DNA from: a virus
Lineage: Duplodnaviria > Caudoviricetes
Reading direction: 5' to 3' (one strand)
Length of the DNA: 64,000 bases
Virus record (IMG/VR): IMGVR_UViG_3300021431_000107
Span: 1 to 64,000 of that record
Made by a program: the position numbers and the translations under genes. The notes under the pieces were generated by a model. It was given only the letters and a program-made list of their open reading frames with translations. It was not told where the DNA came from and searched no databases. Shown here piece by piece: positions 310 through 47,842 of the stretch (the first letter of the stretch is position 1; each line of letters starts with the position of its first letter).

Positions 310-3300
310 TCAACCTCCATTTACAATTTTACTAACAGCAGAAGCAGAGAGACCAAACTGAGCAGCAATGTCAGCCTGAGTAACACCGTTTTGTTTGGCA
401 AGGGCTCTAATTGATGCGGCTACCGCGCTACTAATTTCATTCGCTTGTCTTGGCGTTGCACGTTTCTTAAGTTCATCAGCATCTGTATTCTCAAGAATCT
501 TCTTTAACTTCGAATCAGATATAGCACGAGCTTGAATAGCTTCCCATTCACGATCAGTTATCTCTATACGCTTCTTACTTGCTCCTACAAGTTCTCGTGC
601 TGCTCGAAGACACTGGCCTCTATATTTCTTCTTCTTGTCCGCATCTTCCTTGATTTCAGGATTAGACTCCAGTATGGACCTGAATCTAGCAGTACCGATA
701 GCTTGAGCCTGTCTTTCACGGGGAGAGTTCTTAAGAGCAATAGCAAGATCGGCATCGAGCTGCTTAACTTCTTCAGCATACTCCCGTGCCGCCTGTGGGT
801 CCCTCTTAAGCTTTGGCGTGTTAACCATTTCTCTTCTTGCTTCGTTTGCAAGAGCTTTCATATCGTTTGCATAGTTTGCATATACCACTTCGACTGGATG
901 AGGATTGGACTTAGAAGACATAAGGTTCCTAGCGTCAGTCTCGTATTTCATACGGGGGGCTTTCTCTTTAACTTCTACCTCTATCCGTCTGTTGGGGTCT
1001 GCCTGGGTTGGAGACTTCTTCATATAGGTCTCCTTCTCTTGCTTCCATATCCTCTCTCCAGTACGGGGGTCTATTCCATAGTAAGACTTACCATTAGGGT
1101 CGTCTTTCGTAGTCTCCTTCCCATCTGCCGTAAGATAGATGGTCCCCGGTTTCCTTGGAGTATCATAGCTAGGATTCTTAGCCTTAGTCATGATCGTCTG
1201 AGCCCCTCCACCAGACTGATACTTGGCTTTAAGTTCGGCAATCCTGTTATCCTTATAACACTGCTTATAGTCCAGATAGTGTTTATTAGCATCGATAACC
1301 ACCATGGCATACTTAACGGCCCTCGTCATCTCATCTTCCGTGAGATTTAGACCCCCCTCTCCGGATCCAAGGGCAGTCATATCTGCAATGAGATTAGTAA
1401 TCCTCCCCATCTCCATACCCTTATTCTTAGCCGTCATATATCGCTTATCAATAATCTTCCCATTAGCGTCATGCTTAAGCGACTCGGGTGCTCCGGGTAT
1501 TTTATATGACTTACTATCAAATCCAATAAGCCCCTCCAGTCTTGGTTTGTTTTTGATTCCAGAAGTTTTAACAGGAATGGCAACAACAGTGTCTCCGTCA
1601 AAGTCGGCACCTGATAAGGTCTCTGCTGTATAAGCATCAATGCCAATAGCATCAGGCGCATTCCTCATGAACGACTTGGCTTCAGCGTTATTCTTGTTAT
1701 TTCTAACGATAGGAATCTCGAACTTACCTTCATGCGGATACCTAATAAGCGCAAGGGTCTCTCCGTGCTCATAGTTGGGGGCATAACATTCATGAACCCC
1801 ATCAGAACCGATTTTGAGCGTAGTAAGAGGCATGATTACATGGGCCATCTGATTGTTGAACGCTTTTGCCTTTAGATGAATAGCAGATGCATCACAATCG
1901 TCGGCGAATGATTCAAGAAGCTGCCTCTTAAGAGTCGGATTAGTAAGGTTTTTGAGCTCGTTGTACTCTTCAAGCTTCTCTTTATAAGTGAGGTCAAGCT
2001 GTTTCTTTACGATCGGAACGTTCTGTTTTGCAAGAACCTGAGATGAAATGGTTTTCTTCCATTCAAGCCAGTCTCCCTGGTCATTGACTTTATTAATCAC
2101 CCTAAGTTGATCAGTCTTGTTTCCATTTTGATCAAGACAGAAAGACTGTCCACCAGCATCAAGCGGTTTGATTGTCGCTCCAAATGGATTATCGGCTATA
2201 ATATTGCCATTGATATCCCGTTCCATCTTTTTGAACACATCGTATTTGTCAGTTCCGACCTTCTTATTAGTGTTATAGACGACATCATAACCCTCTGGAA
2301 TGTCATCTGAATAATGGGCCATCCCTTTCATATAATGTGTTCCGTCTACAGCAATTCGAACCTGTGAATACATGGATCTTCCAAGCGAAATATCCTCAAC
2401 ACCTCGTCTAAGCTCAATAGTTCCGTCTTTCTCAGCTCCACCTGAGCCATCAGGATTCGTGTAATTGATGTAAACCCTTTTTGAGTCAATAGATTTCGGA
2501 GGAAGCATTCTCTGAATCTCGAGCCCATCGCCCTCAACATACGAAGTAAGCGGCTTAATAAGAGACGGATCATCTTTTAGCCGTTTCCAGTCGCCTTTTG
2601 CATCGTCGGTAGGTTCTCCAACAGTCGTTATAGTCGTATACTTACCAGGATTTCCAAGCTGCTCGACCTGAATATAATACTGTTTATACCCTTCCGCTTT
2701 TAGCATCTCAATTGCAGTTTTCATTCGCTCTCTTGAAATGTTCTTTTCAAGTTCTGCGCCCGGACCAACGTCAATGAAGTGCTTCGTTTTGAGCTCTTCC
2801 TTGATCATCTCGGCAACATTACGAGTTTTATCATATTTGATCTGCTTATCGTTTTTGAGATAGTTACGAACAGTACCTTCAGAGATGTCAAGTTGCTTAG
2901 CAATCTCAGTATTATTCATGGTCTTATGCATCTCAGGAATTTTGTTTGCATAGTAAACTTGTCTACGCTCTTTTTCCATCGATACGTGAGCTCTTAATTC
3001 AGCTGTCGACTTAAAACCAAGTTCTTTTGCAATTTCTGTTTCAGTAAGTCCATGAGCTTTTAACTCTTTTCTTGTTTTATCCAGCGGAATGTTTTCTCTT
3101 AACTCAGCAACCGATTTATATCCCAAAGCTTCTGCTATCTGTTGTTCAGTAAAACCCTTGGCCTTTAGTTCTCGTCTTCTTGCAACGTAACCAATAAGAT
3201 GCTGTCCAGGATTTTCACCAGAGCCCCATGCAAATCTTCCGGATCCAGGACCAGGAGGATCATCATCATGTCCAACACCATGATGAGCAAGATAATCGTC

Positions 3301-3396
3301 AAACGCTAACTCATTAAGGCTCTCAATCTCTTCTTTTGAAAGTTCGTTTAAGAATACGATCTCATCTAAATCTTTCTCGTAATCTGAAGAAGGCAT
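310..3396 (-). CDS. Single-subunit two-barrel RNA polymerase (YonO / cellular-RdRP-like) with N- and C-terminal HTH units
   Basis: LSGADFDGDTV catalytic loop preceded by LIRYPH (RxP); HTH-like units KGFTEQQIAEALG, HGLTETEIAKELG, MNNTEIAKQLDISEGTVRNY, GVTQADIAAQFGLSASAVSKI. Confidence 0.85.
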   Translation of the reverse strand: MPSSDYEKDLDEIVFLNELSKEEIESLNELAFDDYLAHHGVGHDDDPPGPGSGRFAWGSGENPGQHLIGYVARRRELKAKGFTEQQIAEALGYKSVAELRENIPLDKTRKELKAHGLTETEIAKELGFKSTAELRAHVSMEKERRQVYYANKIPEMHKTMNNTEIAKQLDISEGTVRNYLKNDKQIKYDKTRNVAEMIKEELKTKHFIDVGPGAELEKNISRERMKTAIEMLKAEGYKQYYIQVEQLGNPGKYTTITTVGEPTDDAKGDWKRLKDDPSLIKPLTSYVEGDGLEIQRMLPPKSIDSKRVYINYTNPDGSGGAEKDGTIELRRGVEDISLGRSMYSQVRIAVDGTHYMKGMAHYSDDIPEGYDVVYNTNKKVGTDKYDVFKKMERDINGNIIADNPFGATIKPLDAGGQSFCLDQNGNKTDQLRVINKVNDQGDWLEWKKTISSQVLAKQNVPIVKKQLDLTYKEKLEEYNELKNLTNPTLKRQLLESFADDCDASAIHLKAKAFNNQMAHVIMPLTTLKIGSDGVHECYAPNYEHGETLALIRYPHEGKFEIPIVRNNKNNAEAKSFMRNAPDAIGIDAYTAETLSGADFDGDTVVAIPVKTSGIKNKPRLEGLIGFDSKSYKIPGAPESLKHDANGKIIDKRYMTAKNKGMEMGRITNLIADMTALGSGEGGLNLTEDEMTRAVKYAMVVIDANKHYLDYKQCYKDNRIAELKAKYQSGGGAQTIMTKAKNPSYDTPRKPGTIYLTADGKETTKDDPNGKSYYGIDPRTGERIWKQEKETYMKKSPTQADPNRRIEVEVKEKAPRMKYETDARNLMSSKSNPHPVEVVYANYANDMKALANEARREMVNTPKLKRDPQAAREYAEEVKQLDADLAIALKNSPRERQAQAIGTARFRSILESNPEIKEDADKKKKYRGQCLRAARELVGASKKRIEITDREWEAIQARAISDSKLKKILENTDADELKKRATPRQANEISSAVAASIRALAKQNGVTQADIAAQFGLSASAVSKIVNGG

Positions 3397-4293: not shown

Positions 4294-4314
4294 TTTGATC
4301 ACCTCCCAAGGCAA

Positions 4315-4350
4315 AGAAATAAAGAAAGATGGGCGTACTCTAGCCCTCTC
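4315..4350 (-). terminator. Intrinsic terminator-like hairpin after the helicase gene
   Basis: GGGC-UAGAGUAC-GCCC (4331-4346) followed by AUCUUUCUUUAUUUCUUU on the minus strand. Confidence 0.55.
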
Positions 4351-4374
4351 CCTCTATTATACGCATTGTAATTT

Positions 4375-31863: not shown

Positions 31864-31995
31864 TAAAAAAAAGAAGAAGGATTATTTACTTCGTCAAACC
31901 TTTCGCATCTTTTCCGGCATTGAGAACTTTCCAAAACGTTTTCACGTGTCTCAACCCTGATGCAAGTTCAGGTTATTAGAAGTAATATAATCCCT
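31864..31995 (-). ncRNA. Candidate rod-shaped phage sRNA (about 130 nt)
   Basis: Promoter motif 32000-32024; arms 31979-31999 and 31873-31892 pair (20 bp, one G-U, one bulge); inner stems AACCU/AGGUU, UUGCAUC/GAUGCGA, UUGAGA/UCUCAA, ACGU-GAAA-ACGU; followed by a U-tract. Confidence 0.6.
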
Positions 31996-32069
31996 CTTCA
32001 CTATACCCTCTGTAGTTTTTACGAGTTGCTGTACACTGACACGTTCTCTTTGTTCACGTATAGTTCATG

Positions 32070-36794: not shown

Positions 36795-37139
36795 TTTGAA
36801 TCCTCCCTTTTGAAATACGTTGCTTTGTGATATATGAGAGAAAAAAAGAAGGAGTCCATGTTAAGACTCCTTTTTCCTCCTTTCTTTAAATAACTCACTG
36901 CCAAATCCGACGGTCATGATGACCACGAACAGCATGCCAACAGCTGCTCGAAACCAGAATACGAATGGCTCGGTAACGTACTCATCAGCCCATCTGCCAA
37001 TTTCCGTCCCGAATGCCATCATAAACAGGCTCCACATAGTTAACATAAAAGTTCTGTTCATATCTTCGTCCTCCTTGATATAAGTTGATTTAATCTATCA
37101 TTATAGGAACTGAATTTTTTACGATTAGTTCACTACGTT

Positions 37140-37648
37140 CACACGGTCAAACTCGCAGACTCGTTTAACACGAAAAAGAAAGAGGCAACACTCATTACAT
37201 TCGTAAACGCCTATAAGAAAAGAAAGAGGCATTGAAGCCTCTCTCCGAAATGCTCTTTTATCGATTTTATCCACGCTCGCTGAACAATATATAAAGTCCA
37301 ACGGCGATGAGAATACATCCTAATAAAGTCATTCCGCAGATTCCTCCTTTGCCTCTTCTCTTTTAAGCGTTACGTACCGCTTCTTGAACGGGTTTTTAAT
37401 GAGTTTACGAGTTTCCTCAATCTCCTTCTCCAAATGTTTGGAGTCTGCAGTCGAGTATCCTGTAATATAACCCAGGACCCACTGTGCAAATCCAAATACG
37501 AGAATTCCGATGATACCTGCTACATTTCTCATCTTTCGTCTCCTTTCATAAAAACGTGTTAACGTATCCATTATAGGAGTTGATTTTTTTACGAAGATGT
37601 TCACTCCGCTCACACGGTCAAACTCGCAGACTCGTTTAACACGAAAAA
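37140..37648. repeat. 38-bp identical direct repeat (37140-37177 and 37611-37648), with variants at about 38668-38702 and 43725-43760
   Basis: cacacggtcaaactcgcagactcgtttaacacgaaaaa occurs twice, each time just upstream of a promoter motif. Confidence 0.85.
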
Positions 37649-38341
37649 AGAAAAAGCGACGCTCACTATCGTTCATAAGGTCTTTGAAAAAGAAAAGCCC
37701 TGGAAGTGCATAATAGCTACTCCCAGAGCCTTTATATTACCAGAGATCGTGAGCATCTTTAATAAGCTCAATCCAGTCCTCCATGTTAATAGTTCCCTGT
37801 TTCTCAAGTTTATCGTGTATCAAGATACGCAGCGTCTTGGACTCGTCGCAGTACTTGATGGCTTTCTGATAGTCATCGTTCGTGCGCCAGTACATAGCAA
37901 GAACGCTAAGTTCTAATACCACAAAAATGATAATTATAGTTCCTAACATATTGATTTCCTCCTTTAAAATAATCTATATTAAAAAAGAAGCTCACAATCT
38001 TCTCATAATATGCATTGTAAAGTTTACGATACGATAGGCAAAAATAGGAGCAGCTGTACAATTTGCTGCTCCGTCCTCCTTTCACATCATCCTTTGGATC
38101 TCTTCAATCTGATCCATCATCCTCTTGTTACTTCCGAGAAACATCTCGGTTAAATCGCTGAGTTCCTGACTGATATTATCCAGTCTCTGCTGGACATCAA
38201 TCATGTGCTCACGTTTAATCATAGAGTTGCTCTTTTTCACCTGATTTGATTTCTTCAACATTTTTAAATCCTCCTTATAGAACATAATGTGCTTATATCT
38301 CTATAATAGGAGGTGTAAATATTACGAATTGCTATATCTCG

Positions 38342-38622
38342 AAAGAAAAAAAACAGATTGTAGAGAATCCGTTCAACTTCCTTTTCCTTCAAAAGCTTAA
38401 TCTTTTTCAAGATCCTTCATCAATCTACAATAACCATAGGTGATTAGCCCTTAGGTCACTGTAATCAACAGTCTGCCTGGTAATATCCATTTTATCGATC
38501 GTCACATCGTCATATGCGGATATCTTACATTTTCGGTGCATCCAACCGCGACCTCGTTCTAGCTCACAGATTTGACTAATAATCTGCCGGTCCTTAACAT
38601 TCATATGATGAATATTACCTTT
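38342..38622 (-). ncRNA. Candidate multi-stem structured ncRNA (about 280 nt)
   Basis: Promoter motif 38629-38653, terminal U8 tract; stems 38608-38619/38479-38490 (12 bp), CAUAUG pair, GCAGAUU/AAUCUGU, CGGU/ACCG, ACUGU/ACAGU, 38424-38431/38357-38364 (8 bp), GAUCUU-GAAA-AAGAUU; only a weak-SD 59-codon ORF. Confidence 0.55.
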
Positions 38623-38740
38623 ATCTTCATTATAAGTGATGTAATTTTTACGATTGCTCAGTACCCTCGCACGGTCAAACTCGTTCCTCGTTTAACACGA
38701 AAATAAGAAGCCACTGTATATTTCACAGTGGCCTCATCTA

Positions 38741-38917
38741 TCACTCCTTTCTTTTCTTGAAACAGTATCCGATAATGGCTCCAATAACCAGTACCGGAAA
38801 CAGAATGGCAAAGATAGTTAAAGCAATCGGCCAAATGGCAGCCAAGATGCCTACAACAAGCGGCAGTGCAATCAGCGCCATAAGAGCGAGTGCCATAACA
38901 ATGATCATCTTAATCAT
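38741..38917 (-). CDS. 58-aa hydrophobic membrane protein (not in ORF track)
   Basis: GGAGGAG SD; MIKMIIVMALALMALIALPLVVGILAAIWPIALTIFAILFPVLVIGAIIGYCFKKRKE; own promoter and terminator. Confidence 0.7.
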   Translation of the reverse strand: MIKMIIVMALALMALIALPLVVGILAAIWPIALTIFAILFPVLVIGAIIGYCFKKRKE

Positions 38918-39032
38918 AATTGTCTCCTCCTTTATTTTGAGTAGTTATCGTTTACATTTCTTTCCATTATAGGAACTGTTTTTATTTCGAAAGAGAGAAG
39001 CCACTGTTTCATTTACAGTAGCTTCATGTCTT

Positions 39033-39134
39033 TTAAAACATCATACTTGCAACCCCATTGATAGTTGCGTTTGCAATACAAATCTGGGCGAAGGTTCCTC
39101 CAAAGAACCATCCACCGATATATCCAAACAACAT
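39033..39134 (-). CDS. 33-aa hydrophobic peptide (not in ORF track)
   Basis: GGAGG SD; MLFGYIGGWFFGGTFAQICIANATINGVASMMF; promoter motif at 39168. Confidence 0.55.
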   Translation of the reverse strand: MLFGYIGGWFFGGTFAQICIANATINGVASMMF

Positions 39135-42100
39135 CTCAATTCCTCCTTTTTATTGGGTTTTATTTCTATAATAGGAGGTGTAAATTTTACGAAAAAAGAG
39201 GACCAAGATTTCTCTTGATCCCCCAAATTGTGCTATGATCTGTTCCCCTGTATTATGTCGATTGCAGAAGCAACGAGCAATGCCACAGCGAGAACAATCT
39301 CAACAATCTCGGTCTTTCTCATCTTCGTCCTCCTTTTCCTTTTGAGTAATGCCACGTTTATTAAGTCTCCTTTCTACCGCCCGATCAATGGCGATGTCCT
39401 GCTGTTTCTTCGATACCTGGCCTCCAAGCCAACCAAGTATCAAGCCAAGAATAGTAAGACCCATTCCGCCATTAATAAGCTCTTTAAATTTTTCTTTCAT
39501 AATTTTCCTCCTTTTTAAAAACGTGATTACTATTTCACTATACGGCTTGAAAAAAATACGAGAGCCACTGTATTATCCACAGCAGCTCCCATTTTGAGTT
39601 AGAGTAACTTTTCCGCGATATAATCTGCCATGTCCAAAGTGTTCATTTCTTTATAGAAGTTTTCACGAAAGTCAATCACCGTTTCAGGTATATGCGTGTT
39701 ATTCATGACTGTCATAGCTTCCGGAAAGTTGTCTTCTATGGTCTTAAGTGTTGAATTTGATCCGATCGCTCCAACGTCATCAATCACATCATGGATGTTA
39801 CGCATCACTTTAAATTTGTGACTAGTAACACCGACCGTGTAACCGATTCCTGCTGTTACTGCTCCGATTAAAATTGCTCCACCATAAACAGTCAACTCTA
39901 CCGTATGATCGTCAACCCACTTCCTGATTTTGCCTTTTTCTTTCTTATTTTCCATAAATATCTCCTTTCATTTTAAGATATCGCTTACAAGTTCCTCACT
40001 ATAAGGACTGTATTTAATGCGAGCTCGTTTCACTCGCCATCTCTTACTAAGTTCGAGAAGAAAAGAACAGAAGCCACTGTATTATATACAGCAGCCTCTG
40101 TTGTCAAATTATTTGATACTAAGTTTAGGATTCTGACCGAGTCCCATCTTGCTCACAAACCATCCATTCCGATCCGCATAGATTGCAAGACACGTACCTG
40201 CGAATCCAAGACCCGCTACTGCAAGTCTCGACCCGTTCTCAGTTACGATCTTTACGAGTTCACCTTTCTGACGCTTCTTGGCTGCGGTCGCTTCGTTTTC
40301 AACTTTCTCCTTTTCGAGTTTCAGATTCTCCTCTTCAAGGTCCAGCCTCTTCTGATCCATCTGAAGCTTAGAATCACTCATTTCCCTTTCGGAATCCAGT
40401 TTCTTCTGCTCCATCTCGATCTTAGAAGAGCTAATCTCCTTTTCAGAGTCCATCCGTCTCTCTTCAAGCTCAAGTTTCTCACGATCGACCTCAATCTTTT
40501 CGCGTTCGATATCGGCTTTCTCGCTATCCGTTACCATCTTCATGAGAGTGTCAAGATCTTTGATAGCGTTGTATCTATCGTCGGATCCCAGCTCCATGTG
40601 CTTGATCTTTGCAAGATCGTTATTAATGATTTCGTTTACAAGGATTTTTGTTTCTACAGTCATACAAATTCCTCCTTATTACAAATCAAACAATTTGCTT
40701 CACTATACGACTTGTTTTTTATGCGAATTTGGAATACAATAAACTTGCAAAACACCAAAGAGGGTCTACTTTTCGAGTTTAATCTTGAGATAGATCCTCT
40801 TCCTTTTTGGAAGCTTAGACAGGTCCTCCGATACTTCAATTCTATACGTATCCTTTTCAATATCGGTCTTGTCGATAACAAGCGTTCCAGCATTTGGTGA
40901 TTTAATGATATGCCAAACCGATACAAAGATCGATCCAAAGATATTCCCTAAAATAAAAGCTCCAACATAAAACCAAATCATTTTGAGACCTCCTTTCATA
41001 AAAAAAAGAGACCGCATTTAAGCGATCCCTCTTACTCTTTTCCACTCGTAACGTCCATACATAGATTCATGTACTCCATCGACATAAATCTCGTAACCGC
41101 AGCCATACGGACTCATTGACTTCAGTAAGAACAGATGATCAAGCTCCTTCTTTGGAACAAGACCTCTAAACATAACGATATCTTCTTTATCGACTCTATA
41201 AAGATGCCTCGTCCAGTTTTCAAGATCGTCGATTAACTGTTCCATCATACAGTCCTTTTTGTCCAGGACTACAGCTACGTAGTTAAATCTCAAATCGTAC
41301 ATAAAAATCTCCTTTGAAATAAAGTTATAAGTTTCTATTATACGAAGTGGTTTTATTACGAAAAAAAAGAAGCACCTGTATTTCTACAGATGCTTCTGAG
41401 TACCTAGTTTTCTCTTTCAAGTCTGTTTTTCAGAATGGAGAGAGATCTAATGCTTTCATTGAATTTCTTAGCCTTCTGTTCACAGTTCTCATCCATTGCC
41501 CGATGCATAAGTTTCGTATAGTTCTGGATAAGACTGTTCACGAACTCTAATGTCTCAAAAGTTTCTACATTTTTACTCATGTCATTCCTCCTATAATATA
41601 ACTTGATTTACTAGTTCCTATTATAGGAGTTGTAATTTTTTCGCATTACCATCTCACATCATCTTCGTCTCTGTCATAGTAAGGTCTACCGGTTCTAAGT
41701 TCAAACTCGTAGTCCTCACCGGCTTGTATATCCCCTGCAGTTATCTCCATGGCACATTTACCGCACATATTACCTTCTGGCCACTCCTCATCGTAATCTG
41801 TGTCATAGTCACTAAACTCATCATTGTACATTTCCCTTGCTTCGTCAACATCAAATCGTTTCCCACAATGAATACACTTTGCCATTTTGAGACCTCCTTT
41901 TATAGATGTATAACTGGTTCTATAAAGAAGATATCATAGAAAAAGAAAAGGGACAAGACTTGACTTTCTCATCCCTTTTCAGTATAATGCGCGCTGCTTT
42001 TTTAGTAGTTAAACTTATTTAATCCCTTAAAGAACTTCCAATCCTTACTGAATCCCTTTGGCTTCTCAAGACTCCCAGACAAGATAGAGAACGCATAAAA

Positions 42101-45100
42101 CGTCATTTCTACCATTTTCCTGTGATTAATTCTATCTATAAGTCTAGAATGCTTCACAACAAACTGGTATACAGCTTCATCCGTTACTCTTACGTCAGGA
42201 AAATCTGCGTAATTTGTCAACTCGTACCTAAGAGCTTTAATGATTTTACCCATAAGTTTCCTCCTTTTTAAAAACATAACATTTTGCATCATTATACGAA
42301 TTGAATTTATTACGATACAGCTCAGTCCATTCTCGTACCAAACGAAAAAGAAATAGCCCCTGTTAAGAGGCCATCTCTCCTATAATTTCATGATACATCT
42401 CATCGAGTTCTTTAAATTCAGATTCAGACACATAGCATCTAAACTGCATGCCAACGAGATCGTCTTTTCTCTTGATGAAACGAATGCTATAAGCCACACG
42501 AAGTACCTCGCATACCTTAGAGAATCGTTCGATTTCATCATGAGTTGCAAGAACGAAATCCCACACGATGCACCGTCTTTTACTCTGCTTAATCATGTCT
42601 CTTCTCCCTTCAAGTTAGAACAATTTGTATCATTATATCCGGTGTAAATAGTTCGAAGGTATTTTGAGAAAAAAAAGAAGACGCAGATTACTCTGCATCC
42701 TCATGAGCCGAACGGATAATCCGGCGAATTGAATCGTCGCTATATCCGCAAGACTCACAAAGACCTGCGTAGTAATCCACGTCCTCTTCGAACCCCTCAT
42801 GGCCGAGGGTACGACCATAGAGATTCTCAGCAGCGACCCTAAGCCGCAATCTGAGGTTACTCATACTTGTCACCTCCTTTCCCTCGGTATATATTAGTAG
42901 GTTCCTATACTATGCATTGTAAATTTTACGATACGATAGTAAAAACAAGAAGCCACTGTAATAGCTACAGCAGCCTCTGTTTTGAGTTATTTAATCAATA
43001 CTTTCACGTAAGGAATTCCATCGTCATCGCCAATTTCGATCCACCATTTATCGACCTCAGCAGTATCATATCCGGAGAAGGTTCTTGCAATCTTATCTGC
43101 TGGAAATGTTCCAATCCAGCACGTATGATTAGCCAGGATTATGTCTTTCTCCACGATCGATATTACTAAGTCCTTATCTTTCAATGTTACCACAAGATCC
43201 TTAAGTTTCATAACGTTTCCTCCTTCATTTAAGTATGTTAATAACTTATCATTATATGTATTGTTTTTATTACGAAAAAAAAGAAGCGTCGCTCATGTTA
43301 TTCGCTACGTCCTCAAAAGAAAAAGAGGCCCTGTAAAAGCAGCCTCTTGATGCAGTCAAATAGCATACTTGTCAAGCAGTCTCTTTAAGTCCTCCTTTTC
43401 CCTCTGAAGCTCACCAATCTGCTTCTCAAGGCTATTGATTTCCATGCTCTTCTTAACATTCTCACGGCGATAATATGAGACATCATTGTCACGATCCTGC
43501 AGTCTGATACGAAGTCCTTCAAGAAACCTATTGATCTCAACAATCTCATTGAAATCATCAGCTTCTCCGTCTCCGTAAGTCAGCAGCATAACGTGCTTCT
43601 TGATCTCCTCAAACATATCAACCTGAGCAGTGTTATTCAGTTCTTCCATTTTGAATCTCCTTTCTTAAATCAATTGATTGCTTCATTAAAGCAGTTGTTT
43701 TTATTTCGAACACGCTCAGTCCCCTCGCACCGCCAAACTCTCTTTGTTCGTTTAGCTGAAAAGAAAGAGGCAGATGTTACTCTGCCCCTATGGAACTTAC
43801 TCGAATGATGATAAATCCCATACATGATACGGGGAAATATGCATCTCAATGCCAAGTTCTTCCTTGAAGTAGTTTTCAATTACTTCTGTTATTTTGTCGT
43901 TCTTGGCAAGAGGTAATGCTATTTCGCTGTATTCTTTATATAGTTTCAATACCTCTTCATCTGTAAGTCCGGTAGGTAAAGTAACATAGCCCCTTACTTC
44001 TTCTAGTGATTTCTTAATTACTTTGTTCAACTTCTTCTCTAGCTTTTCAGTAATTTTAACTCCTCCAGGATAGCAGTTGTGTAACCTCATAAAAATCACT
44101 CCTTTCACTATAAGGGCTGTATAAAATGCGAAAAAGAAAGAGCCCTTGTTAGGACTCAATCTCTTCCAGCTGAATTTCATTTAGCTTTAATTCTTCCATT
44201 TTCATATGAACTTCACGAATCTCTTCCTCTTCTGCATTACAGAAGTCGTATGTTGCATGCACCGTGCATAGACTTTCATATTCTATTGTAAGTTTACTTA
44301 TATAGCTATGAACGATATCACAGTGTTTACCCTTCCCTAGCGTTATAAGCGCATCCATTAGATCTGGCGAAGTCATTTCACTTCCCATAATTTCTCTTTT
44401 TTGTGCGTTTTTACATGCTTCAAAGTGTGAAGTATAAACTTTCACTATAGCGTTCATAGCTTTTTCAATCGAATCGCATACAATAACGATAGCCATTTCG
44501 TGTGCATGAATATTCCAACTTGGTCTGTCCACCTTAGAGTACATCGTTACTTGATACATCATATGATTTTCTCCTTTCGTTAGCTAATGTAGCTGTTTCA
44601 CTATAGCCACTGTATAAAATTCGAAAAAGAGAACCAGTTGCAATAACTGATTCTCTAAGTAATCATGGGTATATCATGTCCACGAATGCCGACTGAATAA
44701 GTTTACCCATCGTTGCTTTGTCGTCTAACCATAACATAATATGATCACTCCTTTCTATTTTAGGGACTGTATTTTATGCGAAAAGAAAGACCAGTTGCAA
44801 TAACTGATCCTTCCATTTTGAAAGTTATCCCCATCTAGTCCATACAGTATCTCCATAGGGAGATGTTACCTCTTCAAGGCCCCATTTCTTGCGGAGCTTG
44901 TTCCAAAAGAGTCCAGGCATTTCCACTCTGATAAGTACGATGTCATATACATTCTTTCCAGTCGCCGATTCAACTATCGATGATTGCTCGACGCCGGTTA
45001 CTTTTCCACCGCACTCTTCAAGAGCTTTAGCTACCTCTTTTACGTTAGTTCCATGTCCGAACATAAGTGTCCTTGTTTCTGTTTTCAGCTCCCTAAAGAT

Positions 45101-45595
45101 ATTGTTAATAAACGCCATAGTAATTCCTCCTTTCGCTTTTCATTAAAGGAGTTGTATAAATTGCGAAAAAGAAAGAGCACCTGTAATAGATGCTCCTCTT
45201 GCATGATATTATCGTTCCAACAGTTTATTTAATTCAGTCTCCTCGACATAGTAAGATATTTTATAGCTCTCTCCCCATCCTTTCAAAACACATCTGTAAG
45301 TCGCTTCATAAGTTTCGCAGTCATTGTCATTTGTAACATTGAGCTCACTAACTTTAGATACGGCAACACTATCAGTAATTTTTTTATAGTGTTGCTTAAT
45401 TATTTCTTTAGCGTTCTCAAAGTTATCACCTACACCAATAACATCTTTACCATAGTCCTTATAAGTGTCTTCATATATGTCTTCTTCCATCCAGTACTTC
45501 ACTACTAAATATACTTTATTCATACATCTTCTCCTTTCATTAAAAAGCTAATTGGTTTCACTATAAGCACTGTATAAAATTCGAGGACCGACCAT

Positions 45596-45952
45596 TCAGC
45601 CGATCCCCTTTCTCTTTGATAGCATATAGAAAAACTCTCGAAGGCACCACTCACAAATAGCTTTTTCTCTATCAGAAGAACATACCTGTCCAATGCTTAC
45701 ATCCTCTGTAACGATCTTCAGAATTTTCTCCCCAGGGAATTTTCCGATATCGAATGCTGTCGTCTCGATCAGCTTTACAGCGTGTTTTAGGTCATGTAGA
45801 GAAGATGCGACTCTTCCTGTTTCATCAGAAGAGGCTGTACCAGTTTGATCGAAGCCCTCCTTAGACAGTCTCTCGATCTCTTCCTTCATATCATGGTACT
45901 GAAGGCAAAAGTGCTTAAGCTCCCTGTACCTATGGACTGGTAGATCGTACAT
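45596..45952 (-). CDS. Possible ArpU/RinA-like transcriptional activator
   Basis: HRYRELKHFCLQY...ILKIVTEDVS...REFFYMLS resembles my recollection of that family; lies in the switch operon. Confidence 0.4.
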   Translation of the reverse strand: MYDLPVHRYRELKHFCLQYHDMKEEIERLSKEGFDQTGTASSDETGRVASSLHDLKHAVKLIETTAFDIGKFPGEKILKIVTEDVSIGQVCSSDREKAICEWCLREFFYMLSKRKGIG

Positions 45953-46624: not shown

Positions 46625-47842
46625 TTGTTAACTGAATGCCCAGAATGTAATAATATGGTATCTACTAAAGCTGTGTCTTGTCCTAGATGCGGCTACCCAC
46701 TTAAAGAAACCGCTATCACTCACCCAAGGTCTAACAGCAAAAAGAAACGCATGAGACTTCCAAATGGCTTTGGACGAATCACTTATCTTAAAGGACGTCA
46801 TTTACGAAAACCCTATCGAGTAATGGTATCCACCGGGAAAGACGACTTCGGTAAACCTATAGGAAAGCTACTTAAACCAGAAGCCTATTTTGAGACGTAT
46901 AACGAAGCATATGCAGCTCTAATCAAATACCACGATAACCCGTACGAGTATGACAGTGACATGACTGTTAACGAGCTATATGAGAAGTGGTTTGAAGCAC
47001 ATAAACCATCAGTATCCTCATCAAGACAATACGGAATTAAAGCGGCGTACGACTATTGTATCGATATAATTGGCAGTAGATTCGTTCGTGAAATAAAGGC
47101 TCCTGACATAAGAAGACTTCTTGATAAACCGGTTAAAGTACGTTCTGGAGTAGTTACAGAAGCATCTGATAATGTTAAAAAGAATATAAAGTATGTTCTT
47201 TCAATGATGTTTGATTACGCCGTTGAGTACGGATACGCGGATCGAAATGTCGTACGAGATGTAAGAACTGGACTCCCAGATCAGGAAGCAGAGAACCCTC
47301 ATATTTCGTATTCAAAAGAAGAGCTTGAGATACTCTGGAAGAACGCTGGAAAGTCTCTTATAGTCGATATGATACTCGTCCAGTGCTATATGGGGTGGAG
47401 ACCTAATGAGATGTGTAACCTTCTTTTATCGAATGTAAATATGACAGATTACACGATAAAAGGAGGATCTAAAACTAAAGCTGGTAAAGAGCGTAAAGTC
47501 CCTATTCACAGTAGGATAAGACCGCTCATTCAGTCTCACTATAACGAATCTATTTTGAGCAACGGAACTTATCTATTTGTGATAGGCGATAAGAGAAAGA
47601 GACAGATTACGTATCAGATTCTTAAGACGAGATACAAGGAATGCTTTATGGAACTTGGAATAAACGAGTCTCATAGGCTCCATGATGGAAGAAAGACTTT
47701 TGTCACTTTAGCAAAAGAAGCAGGCGTAGATGAGTACGCAATTAAGCTTATCGTAGGACATGCTATTTCTGACATTACAGAGAGGGTCTATACAGAGAGA
47801 TCAATTAAGTGGCTTCATAGTGAGATCAGTAAAATCAAGTAA
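46625..47842 (+). CDS. int: Tyrosine integrase with N-terminal zinc ribbon
   Basis: GWRPNE (R), HRLHDGRKT (HxxR), VGHA...TERVY (H, Y); CPEC...CPRC at the N-terminus; AGGAGGTG SD with TTG start. Confidence 0.92.
   Translation: MLTECPECNNMVSTKAVSCPRCGYPLKETAITHPRSNSKKKRMRLPNGFGRITYLKGRHLRKPYRVMVSTGKDDFGKPIGKLLKPEAYFETYNEAYAALIKYHDNPYEYDSDMTVNELYEKWFEAHKPSVSSSRQYGIKAAYDYCIDIIGSRFVREIKAPDIRRLLDKPVKVRSGVVTEASDNVKKNIKYVLSMMFDYAVEYGYADRNVVRDVRTGLPDQEAENPHISYSKEELEILWKNAGKSLIVDMILVQCYMGWRPNEMCNLLLSNVNMTDYTIKGGSKTKAGKERKVPIHSRIRPLIQSHYNESILSNGTYLFVIGDKRKRQITYQILKTRYKECFMELGINESHRLHDGRKTFVTLAKEAGVDEYAIKLIVGHAISDITERVYTERSIKWLHSEISKIK

What the first reader, a model, noticed from the sequence alone, without database searches (positions are those of the whole stretch)
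38342..38653. Promoter-to-U-tract unit encoding a candidate about 280-nt multi-domain ncRNA
Seen: unlike neighbouring cassettes, this unit has no GGAGG-led ORF. The minus-strand RNA can form a 5' multibranch domain closed by GGUAAUAUUCAU/AUGGAUAUUACC, where the G-U pair exists only on this strand. It also has a small ACUGU/ACAGU hairpin and a 3' domain closed by AUUGUAGA/UCUACAAU that contains a GAAA-capped stem and a CUUUU/AAAAG stem. A local alternative pairing AUUCAU/AUGAAU hints at switching. I could not match it to riboswitch, RNase P, tmRNA or group I consensus elements. Inference: a novel phage RNA (protein sponge, RNAP regulator or anti-defence RNA).
Basis: partly seen in the sequence, partly recalled or inferred. 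Interest (0 to 1): 0.8.

Follow-up and report, generated by a model that had tools for sequence, protein, structure and literature searches.

The report
Untranslated promoter-to-terminator cassette in gut phage
One cassette in a gut phage's array of tiny one-gene units has the array's promoter and a weak terminator but no ribosome-binding site and no conserved reading frame, so it most likely makes a roughly 275-nt non-coding RNA whose fold and function remain unproven.

Summary
The unit is real and discrete. It starts at a perfect copy of the array's promoter motif (TCGTAA-N6-CA-N5-TATAAT, 38653-38629, minus strand) and ends at a weak hairpin plus U8 (38374-38346). In related phages the neighbouring cassettes change exactly at these ends.

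It is the only one of 16 such promoters not followed by a strong Shine-Dalgarno ATG. The 59-codon ORF is not a conserved gene:
- Its only relative among billions of proteins is a frameshifted 46-aa form.
- One related contig carries a +1 insertion that cuts the ORF to 26 codons.
- 10 of 13 listed substitutions are non-synonymous, many of them radical.
- The adjacent 58-aa membrane gene shows clear purifying selection.

The proposed fold is only partly right. The 12-bp closing helix, the GAAA-capped hairpin and the alternative 5' hairpin are present. The ACUGU/ACAGU, AUUGUAGA/UCUACAAU and CUUUU/AAAAG pairings are out-competed by other pairings.

Folding energy (z about -2.4) is no better than that of neighbouring real mRNAs. 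Substitutions spare the confident helices (P about 0.02-0.08), and there is one compensatory G-C to C-G swap. This is suggestive, not proof.

There is no Rfam match and no homolog beyond near-identical strains. Verdict: a probable non-coding phage transcript of unknown role and moderate interest.

The parts
38654..38706 (-). Upstream promoter module shared with two other cassettes (conserved blocks TTTTCGTGTTAAACGAG and CGAGTTTGACCGTG)
   Evidence: Three-way alignment with the regions upstream of the promoters at 37594 and 37124. Relatives X3 and X7 lack 21 nt of it. Weak sub-threshold resemblance to Rfam Enterococcus-1.
38629..38653 (-). Promoter motif TCGTAA-N6-CA-N5-TATAAT
   Evidence: One of 16 copies, all on the minus strand. 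X3's three changes here leave CA and TATAAT intact and change TCGTAA to TCGCAA.
38346..38622 (-). Inferred transcript of about 277 nt. The start is inferred about 7 nt after TATAAT and the end at the U-tract.
   Evidence: Inference from the promoter and terminator positions. A 197-nt contig of an RNA library from the same sample covers 38381-38577 at 100% identity.
38596..38616 (-). 5' hairpin of 9 bp with loop CAU, which buries the AUG at 38604
   Evidence: -4.7 kcal/mol. G38598A in X3/X7 turns a U-G pair into U-A, and A38616G in X3 gives G-U.
38479..38619 (-). 5' domain closed by the 12-bp helix 38619-38608/38490-38479. This helix is mutually exclusive with the 5' hairpin and with the local helix 38524-38518/38488-38482.
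   Evidence: Mean pair probability 0.77. Three changes inferred from P0002 keep pairing. U38617C in X3/X4/X7 breaks one pair.
38566..38587 (-). Hairpin GCAGAUU/AAUCUGU, 7 bp
   Evidence: Pair probability 0.86. The only change seen is in the loop (U38579C, inferred from P0002).
38534..38548 (-). Small hairpin CGGU/ACCG inside a hypervariable patch (38532-38564)
   Evidence: X3 has G38547C together with C38535G (compensatory) and A38537G (gives U-G). This was noticed after seeing the data.
38425..38604 (-). 59-codon ORF, judged not to be a conserved gene
38419..38470 (-). Strongest hairpin of the unit (16 bp with internal loops, apical loop GCUAAUCA). Its 5' arm resembles the 3' arm of the array's terminator family.
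   Evidence: -17.7 kcal/mol, z -4.75, 0 of 200 shuffles as good. Pair probability 0.96. Alignment with four terminators. No listed substitution in X3/X4/X7.
38399..38414 (-). GAAA-capped 6-bp hairpin
   Evidence: Pair probability 0.94, z -3.3.
38377..38390 (-). Purine-rich tract GAAGGAAAAGGAAG, which can pair with the U-tract
38346..38374 (-). Weak intrinsic terminator: a 9-bp hairpin followed by U8
   Evidence: -7.0 kcal/mol against -16 to -19 for neighbouring terminators. Not found by the consensus scan. Contigs of X3, X4 and X7 diverge from the window at 38349/38350.

Best explanation
The unit is a self-contained cassette of the phage's early-gene array. It is transcribed from the array's own promoter motif into an untranslated RNA of about 275 nt.

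Shown:
- The promoter motif, the weak hairpin plus U8 and the cassette boundaries.
- The absence of a ribosome-binding site.
- The lack of coding constraint in relatives.

Inferred:
- The RNA itself is the product.
- The most conserved part is the 3' half: the strong hairpin 38470-38419, the GAAA hairpin, the purine tract and the terminator. I take this as the working part, most likely binding a host or phage factor in trans during early infection.
- The 5' half can flip between a long-range 12-bp closure and two local hairpins, and it tolerates a hypervariable patch.
For: - Promoter: a perfect copy of a 25-nt motif found 16 times, only on the minus strand. 15 of the 16 lead to a Shine-Dalgarno site plus ATG, and this one does not.
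- Module boundaries: relatives' contigs diverge at 38349/38350, where X3 reads straight into another motif promoter. The unit stays next to the 58-aa gene in X3 and X7 while the flanking cassettes differ.
- Not coding:
  - The only protein relative in 5.8 billion and 1.8 billion sequence searches is P0002, 46 aa. It is explained exactly by an extra base after codon 43.
  - X3 has a +1 insertion at 38559 that gives a 26-codon ORF.
  - 10 of 13 listed substitutions are non-synonymous, including K>E, R>G, G>R and L>R.
  - The adjacent gene has 8 of 12 synonymous changes and keeps its full length in relatives of 81-91% identity.
  - The codon-frame score is the lowest of 15 small ORFs.
- Nucleotide conservation: X4 differs at 3 of 167 positions in 38350-38516 but at 23 of 289 in 38605-38893 (table 8).
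- Structure: the listed substitutions break 1 of the 57 pairs with probability >=0.5, against 4.7 expected (P 0.02; 0.08 without the protein-inferred changes). There is one G-C to C-G swap in X3.
- Expression: an RNA-library contig from the same sample covers 38381-38577.
Against: - Folding energy is no better than that of neighbouring real coding sequences.
- The full MFE and MEA structures show no sparing of pairs.
- The compensatory pair was noticed after the fact.
- U38617C in three relatives breaks a pair of the closing helix.
- Only near-identical relatives (93-98%) are known, so covariation has little power.
- The difference table hid 74 rows, so conservation figures other than the per-contig totals may be too high.
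- High identity of the 3' half could reflect recent cassette exchange rather than selection.
- The RNA library may contain DNA.
- The window and X7 keep the 59-codon frame open.
- There is no Rfam match even at E<=10.
- No target complementarity was found.
Confidence: 0.5

Rival explanations
1. Non-functional remnant. The unit is cassette debris made by recombination at the array's homologous promoter and terminator modules. On this reading a promoter module is joined to scrambled sequence that is still transcribed but does nothing.
For: - The promoter module is shared with two other cassettes.
- An internal hairpin (38477-38453) looks like a decayed copy of the array's terminator family without its U-tract.
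- The terminator is weak, -7 against -16 to -19 kcal/mol.
- A second X4 contig departs from the window at 38398, inside the unit (table 7).
- There is no coding constraint.
- Folding energy is not distinctive.
- There is a hypervariable patch at 38532-38564 in X3.
Against: - The unit is kept, with promoter and U-tract, in at least four related sequences from different samples and years.
- Its 3' 167 nt differ about four-fold less than the flanking stretch in X4.
- Substitutions tend to spare the confident helices.
- Phage genomes usually lose useless DNA. This last point is general knowledge, not tested here.
Confidence: 0.28
2. Cis-acting leader. The weak terminator lets transcription from this promoter read into the next cassette, so the structured RNA and its two 5' conformations tune expression of the downstream gene.
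For: - The terminator hairpin is only -7 kcal/mol.
- Mutually exclusive 5' pairings exist.
Against: - The next gene has its own motif promoter at 38327.
- In X3 and X7 the cassette downstream of the unit is a different one. The unit is therefore not tied to one downstream gene.
Confidence: 0.1
3. A young, lineage-restricted 59-aa protein gene that is poorly translated and already inactivated in some strains.
For: - The frame is open for 59 codons in the window and in X7.
- Gene callers recorded it in two sources.
- The other cassette genes are orphans too.
Against: - There is no Shine-Dalgarno sequence, whereas every other cassette has one.
- The AUG sits inside a hairpin.
- It has the lowest codon-frame score.
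- There are frameshifts in X3 and P0002, and probably a 1-nt deletion at 38517 in X4.
- Most changes are non-synonymous.
- The M22I change removes the only internal alternative start.
Confidence: 0.08

Closest known systems
Stand-alone small RNAs encoded by phages and prophages, such as the DicF, IpeX and AgvB/AsxR type in enterobacterial prophages (from general knowledge, not tested here)
   Same: It has its own promoter, an intrinsic terminator and no translated ORF. It sits among accessory genes of a temperate phage.
   Different: There is no sequence or Rfam relationship. No seed or target complementarity was found in the phage. It is longer (about 275 nt) and comes from a Firmicute-type phage. 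Function and expression are unproven.
Promoter-early stem-loop (PeSL) cassette arrays of T4-type phages.
   Same: There is a run of one-gene units bounded by similar promoters and terminator stem-loops. Cassettes are present or absent between relatives exactly at those boundaries.
   Different: The promoter motif and phage type are different. PeSL describes the architecture of the array, not a non-coding cassette.
Lambda 6S RNA, the PR'-to-tR' transcript (general knowledge)
   Same: It is a short untranslated transcript running from a phage promoter to a terminator, with genes downstream.
   Different: Here the next gene has its own promoter and the downstream cassette differs between relatives. 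No antiterminator link is shown.
phi29 pRNA and bacterial 6S RNA (Rfam families)
   Same: They are phage or host protein-binding RNAs of similar size.
   Different: No match appears in the Rfam scan at gathering or at E<=10. The predicted fold is not a rod with a central bubble. The phage is a temperate siphovirus-like genome, not phi29-like.

Membership tests
Any Rfam 15 family | Covariance-model score at or above the family's gathering threshold | tested here: not met
   There are 0 matches in the whole window at gathering. At E<=10 on 38250-38750 nothing lies in the body of the unit. The best match is Enterococcus-1, 16.7 bits against a threshold of 71.4, on the upstream terminator and promoter module.
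Stand-alone phage non-coding RNA (generic kind) | Own promoter and own terminator | tested here: met
   Motif promoter at 38653-38629. Hairpin plus U8 at 38374-38346, though weak. These are sequence signals only; neither end is mapped.
Stand-alone phage non-coding RNA (generic kind) | No translated, conserved ORF | tested here: met
   No Shine-Dalgarno sequence, frameshifts in relatives and mostly non-synonymous changes, against a control gene under purifying selection.
Stand-alone phage non-coding RNA (generic kind) | Detected as a discrete transcript | tested here: inconclusive
   One 197-nt contig of an RNA library covers 38381-38577. Contigs give no ends, strand or level, and DNA carry-over is not excluded.
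Stand-alone phage non-coding RNA (generic kind) | Secondary structure conserved with covariation | tested here: inconclusive
   1 pair broken against 4.7 expected (P 0.02, or 0.08 without the inferred changes). One compensatory pair. No signal on the MFE or MEA structure. The relatives are only 93-98% identical and their differences are only partly listed.
Small protein-coding cassette gene of this array | AGGAGG-type ribosome-binding site 7-10 nt before the start codon | tested here: not met
   15 of 16 motif promoters have one and this unit has none.
Small protein-coding cassette gene of this array | Reading frame kept and changes mostly synonymous in relatives | tested here: not met
   X3 has a +1 insertion, P0002 has a frameshift, and 10 of 13 changes are non-synonymous.
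Type I toxin-antitoxin antisense RNA | Extended complementarity to a neighbouring small hydrophobic-peptide mRNA | tested here: not met
   The longest exact complementarity to any other phage transcript is 12-13 nt, at chance level. Duplex energies with four neighbouring mRNAs are no better than with shuffled RNA, z from -0.06 to +1.2.
Riboswitch or cis-regulatory leader | Fixed linkage to a downstream regulated gene | tested here: not met
   The downstream gene has its own promoter, and the downstream cassette differs in X3 and X7.

The most novel reading that the evidence does not exclude
The unit encodes a new class of structured phage RNA, restricted so far to one clade of ruminant and gut temperate phages. 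It would be made with the early host-takeover cassettes. Its conserved 3' domain would bind and neutralise a host factor such as a defence or RNA-processing protein, and the 5' domain would switch between two folds.
Probability: 0.15. Interest if true: 0.6.

Novelty: new member of a known kind. Interest (0 to 1): 0.35.

Why it matters
Arrays of tiny early genes are where phages keep host-takeover and counter-defence functions. Non-coding members of such arrays are rarely recognised, because gene callers annotate any open frame. Here the 59-codon ORF was called in two databases.

Showing that one cassette is RNA-only would add an RNA effector to this toolkit. It would also give a compact test case: about 275 nt, its own promoter, and natural variants that include a hypervariable patch.

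As it stands the value is modest. The element is confined to a few near-identical uncultivated phages, its structure is not statistically established, and no function is indicated.

Tried and rejected
- Relatives' DNA could not be fetched.
  - The search for related loci found nothing with the ORF or its alignment in viral, metagenome and genome contigs.
  - It also found nothing with neighbouring proteins in viral contigs.
  - A 31-nt degenerate pattern of the 5' hairpin found nothing in any of the three collections.
  - blastn and tblastn against 50,697 phage records found nothing useful.
  - As a result, R-scape or RNAalifold-type covariation on real alignments could not be run. I rebuilt variants only from the listed differences and from P0002.
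- Distant relatives do not carry the unit. 34 IMG/VR phages share a DNA polymerase at 39-47% identity. None has the unit by blastn or by a single-sequence covariance model of the 3' domain (best E 0.02 per genome, not significant).
- In the RNA run X2 the rest of 38000-39000 had no cover.
- The z-score as evidence of structure is rejected after the local control.
- CsrA-type GGA enrichment was considered. I counted 7 GGA by eye against about 6.6 expected from composition, which is no enrichment.
- Small ORFs after the purine tract, or starting at the TTG at 38410, were rejected because they have wrong spacing or run through the terminator and the next promoter.
- A start at M22 is rejected because ATG becomes ATA in X3, X7 and P0002.
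- ARAGORN found no tRNA or tmRNA.
- AlphaFold on the single ORF sequence gave pLDDT 49.7, which is uninformative on its own.
- The paper behind the Enterococcus-1 motif does not discuss it in its main text.

Full report
**Context**

The window is the first 64 kb of an 82.7-kb IMG/VR virus record rated complete. The record carries:
- an integrase (46625-47842);
- a primase-polymerase whose nearest named relatives are about 41% identical (Faecalibacterium, Gordonia and Arthrobacter phages);
- a helicase and tail proteins;
- a 1028-aa protein matching the PHROG of YonO-like single-subunit RNA polymerases.

Public runs holding near-identical DNA are gut metagenomes, including goat gut, plus one run labelled as a single organism.

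Between about 36.8 and 45.6 kb all genes lie on the minus strand. They form a dense array of one-gene cassettes, as earlier notes of this scan also recorded.

**The unit is a proper cassette**

A 25-nt motif, TCGTAA-N6-CA-N5-TATAAT, occurs 16 times in the genome, always on the minus strand. The copy at 38653-38629 heads the unit.

About 75 nt including this motif are shared with the cassettes at 37594 and 37124.

Fifteen of the sixteen motifs are followed within about 30-75 nt by an AGGAGG-type site and an ATG. The unit is the exception. Its ATG at 38604 is preceded by agataaaggtaatattcatcat, and the unit contains no GGAG at all.

The unit ends in a 9-bp hairpin followed by U8 (38374-38346). 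At -7.0 kcal/mol this hairpin is far weaker than neighbouring terminators at -16 to -19, and the consensus scan missed it.

Laying contigs of three DNA runs on 38000-39000 shows that relatives depart from the window exactly at 38349/38350. In X3 the U-tract runs straight into another motif promoter. The unit plus the upstream 58-aa gene stay together in X3 and X7 while the flanking cassettes differ.

**The 59-codon ORF is not a conserved gene**

- *Homologs.* A word-indexed search of 5.8 billion proteins and a full HMMER scan of 1.84 billion representatives find only the ORF itself and P0002, 46 aa.
- *Frameshift in P0002.* P0002 is identical in layout up to codon 41 and then reads NIVWTDC-stop. 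Three substitutions and one inserted base in the window's DNA reproduce it exactly, so it is a frameshifted form.
- *Frameshift in X3.* Contig X3 (depth 10.7) has a +1 insertion at 38559, giving a 26-codon ORF.
- *Possible frameshift in X4.* X4's contig end fits a 1-nt deletion of 38517. This is tentative, because the depth is 4.3 and it lies at a contig end.
- *Substitution pattern.* Of 13 listed substitutions in the ORF, 10 are non-synonymous, including K>E, R>G, H>R, G>R, E>G and L>R.
- *Control gene.* In the adjacent 58-aa membrane gene, 8 of 12 substitutions are synonymous and the other four are I/V/A exchanges. Its two database relatives, 91% and 81% identical, keep the full 58 codons.
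- *Codon signature.* The ORF has the lowest codon-frame score of 15 small ORFs: 0.06/0.10, against summed scores of at least 0.38 for the others.
- *Start codon.* Its AUG lies inside a 9-bp hairpin.
- *Other checks.* Pfam and PHROGs give nothing, but that is also true of the real cassette genes, so it does not discriminate. The single-sequence AlphaFold model is unconfident, which I do not count as evidence.

**What the RNA could look like**

Pair probabilities on 38625-38340 give these confident elements:
- the 12-bp closure 38619-38608/38490-38479 (probability 0.77);
- GCAGAUU/AAUCUGU at 38587-38566 (0.86);
- a long hairpin at 38470-38419 (0.96; -17.7 kcal/mol; z -4.75);
- the GAAA-capped hairpin 38414-38399 (0.94);
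- the terminator hairpin (0.88).

The 5' strand of the closure can instead form the local AUG-burying hairpin. Its 3' strand can instead pair with GAUAUCC at 38524-38518. Two exclusive conformations therefore exist on paper, and the MFE and the centroid disagree on which one forms.

All three relatives also change U38391 to C, which would weaken the last of these.

The ACUGU...ACAGUGACC segment aligns with the array's terminator family (...CUGU...ACAGUGGCUUC) but lacks a U-tract. This suggests a relic of cassette recombination.

**Is the structure more than chance?**

Against dinucleotide shuffles:

| Segment | z-score |
|---|---|
| Whole unit, minus strand | -2.4 |
| Body without terminator, minus strand | -2.8 |
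| Plus strand | about -1.0 |

The local control removes the signal. Sixteen real coding sequences of the array give z from -0.3 to -3.3, with a median near -2, and sliding windows behave likewise.

The substitution data are more telling, but thin. Twenty-two distinct substitutions (16 read from contigs, 6 inferred from P0002) break only 1 of the 57 pairs with probability at least 0.5, where random placement breaks 4.7. That gives P = 0.02, or P = 0.08 without the inferred ones. On the full MFE or MEA structures there is no signal.

Changes that keep pairing:
- C38497U, giving G-U;
- G38598A, turning U-G into U-A;
- A38616G, giving G-U;
- the P0002 changes at 38487, 38481 and 38480 in the closure.

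X3's G38547C with C38535G is a full compensatory swap in a small CGGU/ACCG hairpin, but I found it after looking at the data. U38617C, shared by three relatives, breaks one pair of the closure.

**Conservation**

Using per-contig totals, which do not depend on which rows the tool displayed, X4 differs from the window at 3 of 167 positions in 38350-38516 and at 23 of 289 in 38605-38893.

By the listed rows, X3 is 1.6% divergent in 38349-38531. It is 33% divergent in a patch at 38532-38564 and about 11% divergent in the listed part of the neighbouring gene.

There are two caveats. The tool hid 74 rows, and in a mosaic array a recently exchanged cassette would look conserved without selection.

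**Expression**

One 197-nt contig of a metatranscriptomic library from the same sample as the best DNA holder covers 38381-38577 without a mismatch. Contigs give no ends, strand or level, and DNA carry-over is possible. This is a hint only.

**Comparison with known things**

- Rfam gives nothing at gathering thresholds for the whole window and nothing in the unit's body at E<=10.
- There is no tRNA or tmRNA.
- There is no complementarity beyond chance to other phage transcripts. An antisense or type I antitoxin role within the phage is therefore unsupported.
- Distant relatives (DNA polymerase 39-47% identical) lack the unit by blastn and by a covariance model of the 3' domain.

The element belongs to the loose kind 'stand-alone phage-encoded small RNA', set inside a PeSL-like cassette array. 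It is not a member of any curated family.

**Verdict**

I put about 0.8 on the unit being a transcribed cassette with no protein product. Within that:
- about 0.5 overall that the RNA is functional in its own right;
- about 0.28 that it is tolerated debris of cassette shuffling;
- about 0.1 that it is a leader reading through its weak terminator;
- about 0.08 that it is a young protein gene.

The proposed sponge, RNA polymerase or anti-defence roles are untested guesses. Interest is moderate to low (0.35). It would rise if covariation, discrete transcript ends or a phenotype were shown.

Noticed in passing
window 310-3396 (-): A 1028-aa protein matches the PHROG of YonO-like single-subunit RNA polymerases (annotated 'RNA-dependent RNA polymerase', E 5e-285), with helix-turn-helix-like stretches at both ends. 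Whether it reads the TCGTAA-N6-CA-N5-TATAAT promoters is unknown.
   Followed up: no
window, minus strand: 44781, 43275, 42656, 42315, 41361, 39192, 38990, 38653, 38327, 38029, 37594, 37124, 35009, 28703, 21975, 4380: There are sixteen copies of a 25-nt promoter-like motif, all on one strand. It has a canonical TATAAT but no -35 hexamer at the usual spacing. Weak blastn matches suggest similar promoter words in some distant relatives.
   Followed up: partly
window 38635-38745 (-); also upstream of 37594 and 37124: A shared inter-cassette module of about 75 nt gives a sub-threshold match to Rfam Enterococcus-1 (RF02973, 16.7 bits, E 0.7). Its core GUUAAACGAGGAACGAG is nearly identical to the model's consensus. 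That Rfam motif may be related to this kind of phage cassette boundary. The Rfam source paper does not discuss it in its main text.
   Followed up: partly
window 4310-4355 (-) and 37975-38004 (-): Two motif promoters are followed at once by a small hairpin and a T-rich run before the ribosome-binding site of their gene. These are promoter-proximal terminator-like elements and may point to antitermination control. An earlier follow-up at 31864-32024 reported the same theme.
   Followed up: no
window 38707-38735, 38997-39025, 39558-39592, 40066-40102 (-): The terminators of different cassettes share sequence (…CTGT…ACAGTGGCTTC). A decayed copy lies inside the unit at 38453-38477. Together with the shared promoter modules this gives homologous boundaries for cassette exchange.
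   Followed up: partly
window 38000-39000 versus runs X3, X4, X7: Cassette content differs between close relatives. X3 appears to lack the cassette at 38995-39192. X3 and X7 replace the 67-aa gene region (38100-38297) with about 201 other bases. X7 has 369 extra bases between the unit and the next cassette. X3 and X7 lack 21 nt at 38665-38687.
   Followed up: partly
window 36800-45600 (-): Sense-strand coding sequences of the whole array fold better than dinucleotide shuffles (median z about -2). Folding z-scores are therefore a poor discriminator for non-coding RNAs in this genome.
   Followed up: yes
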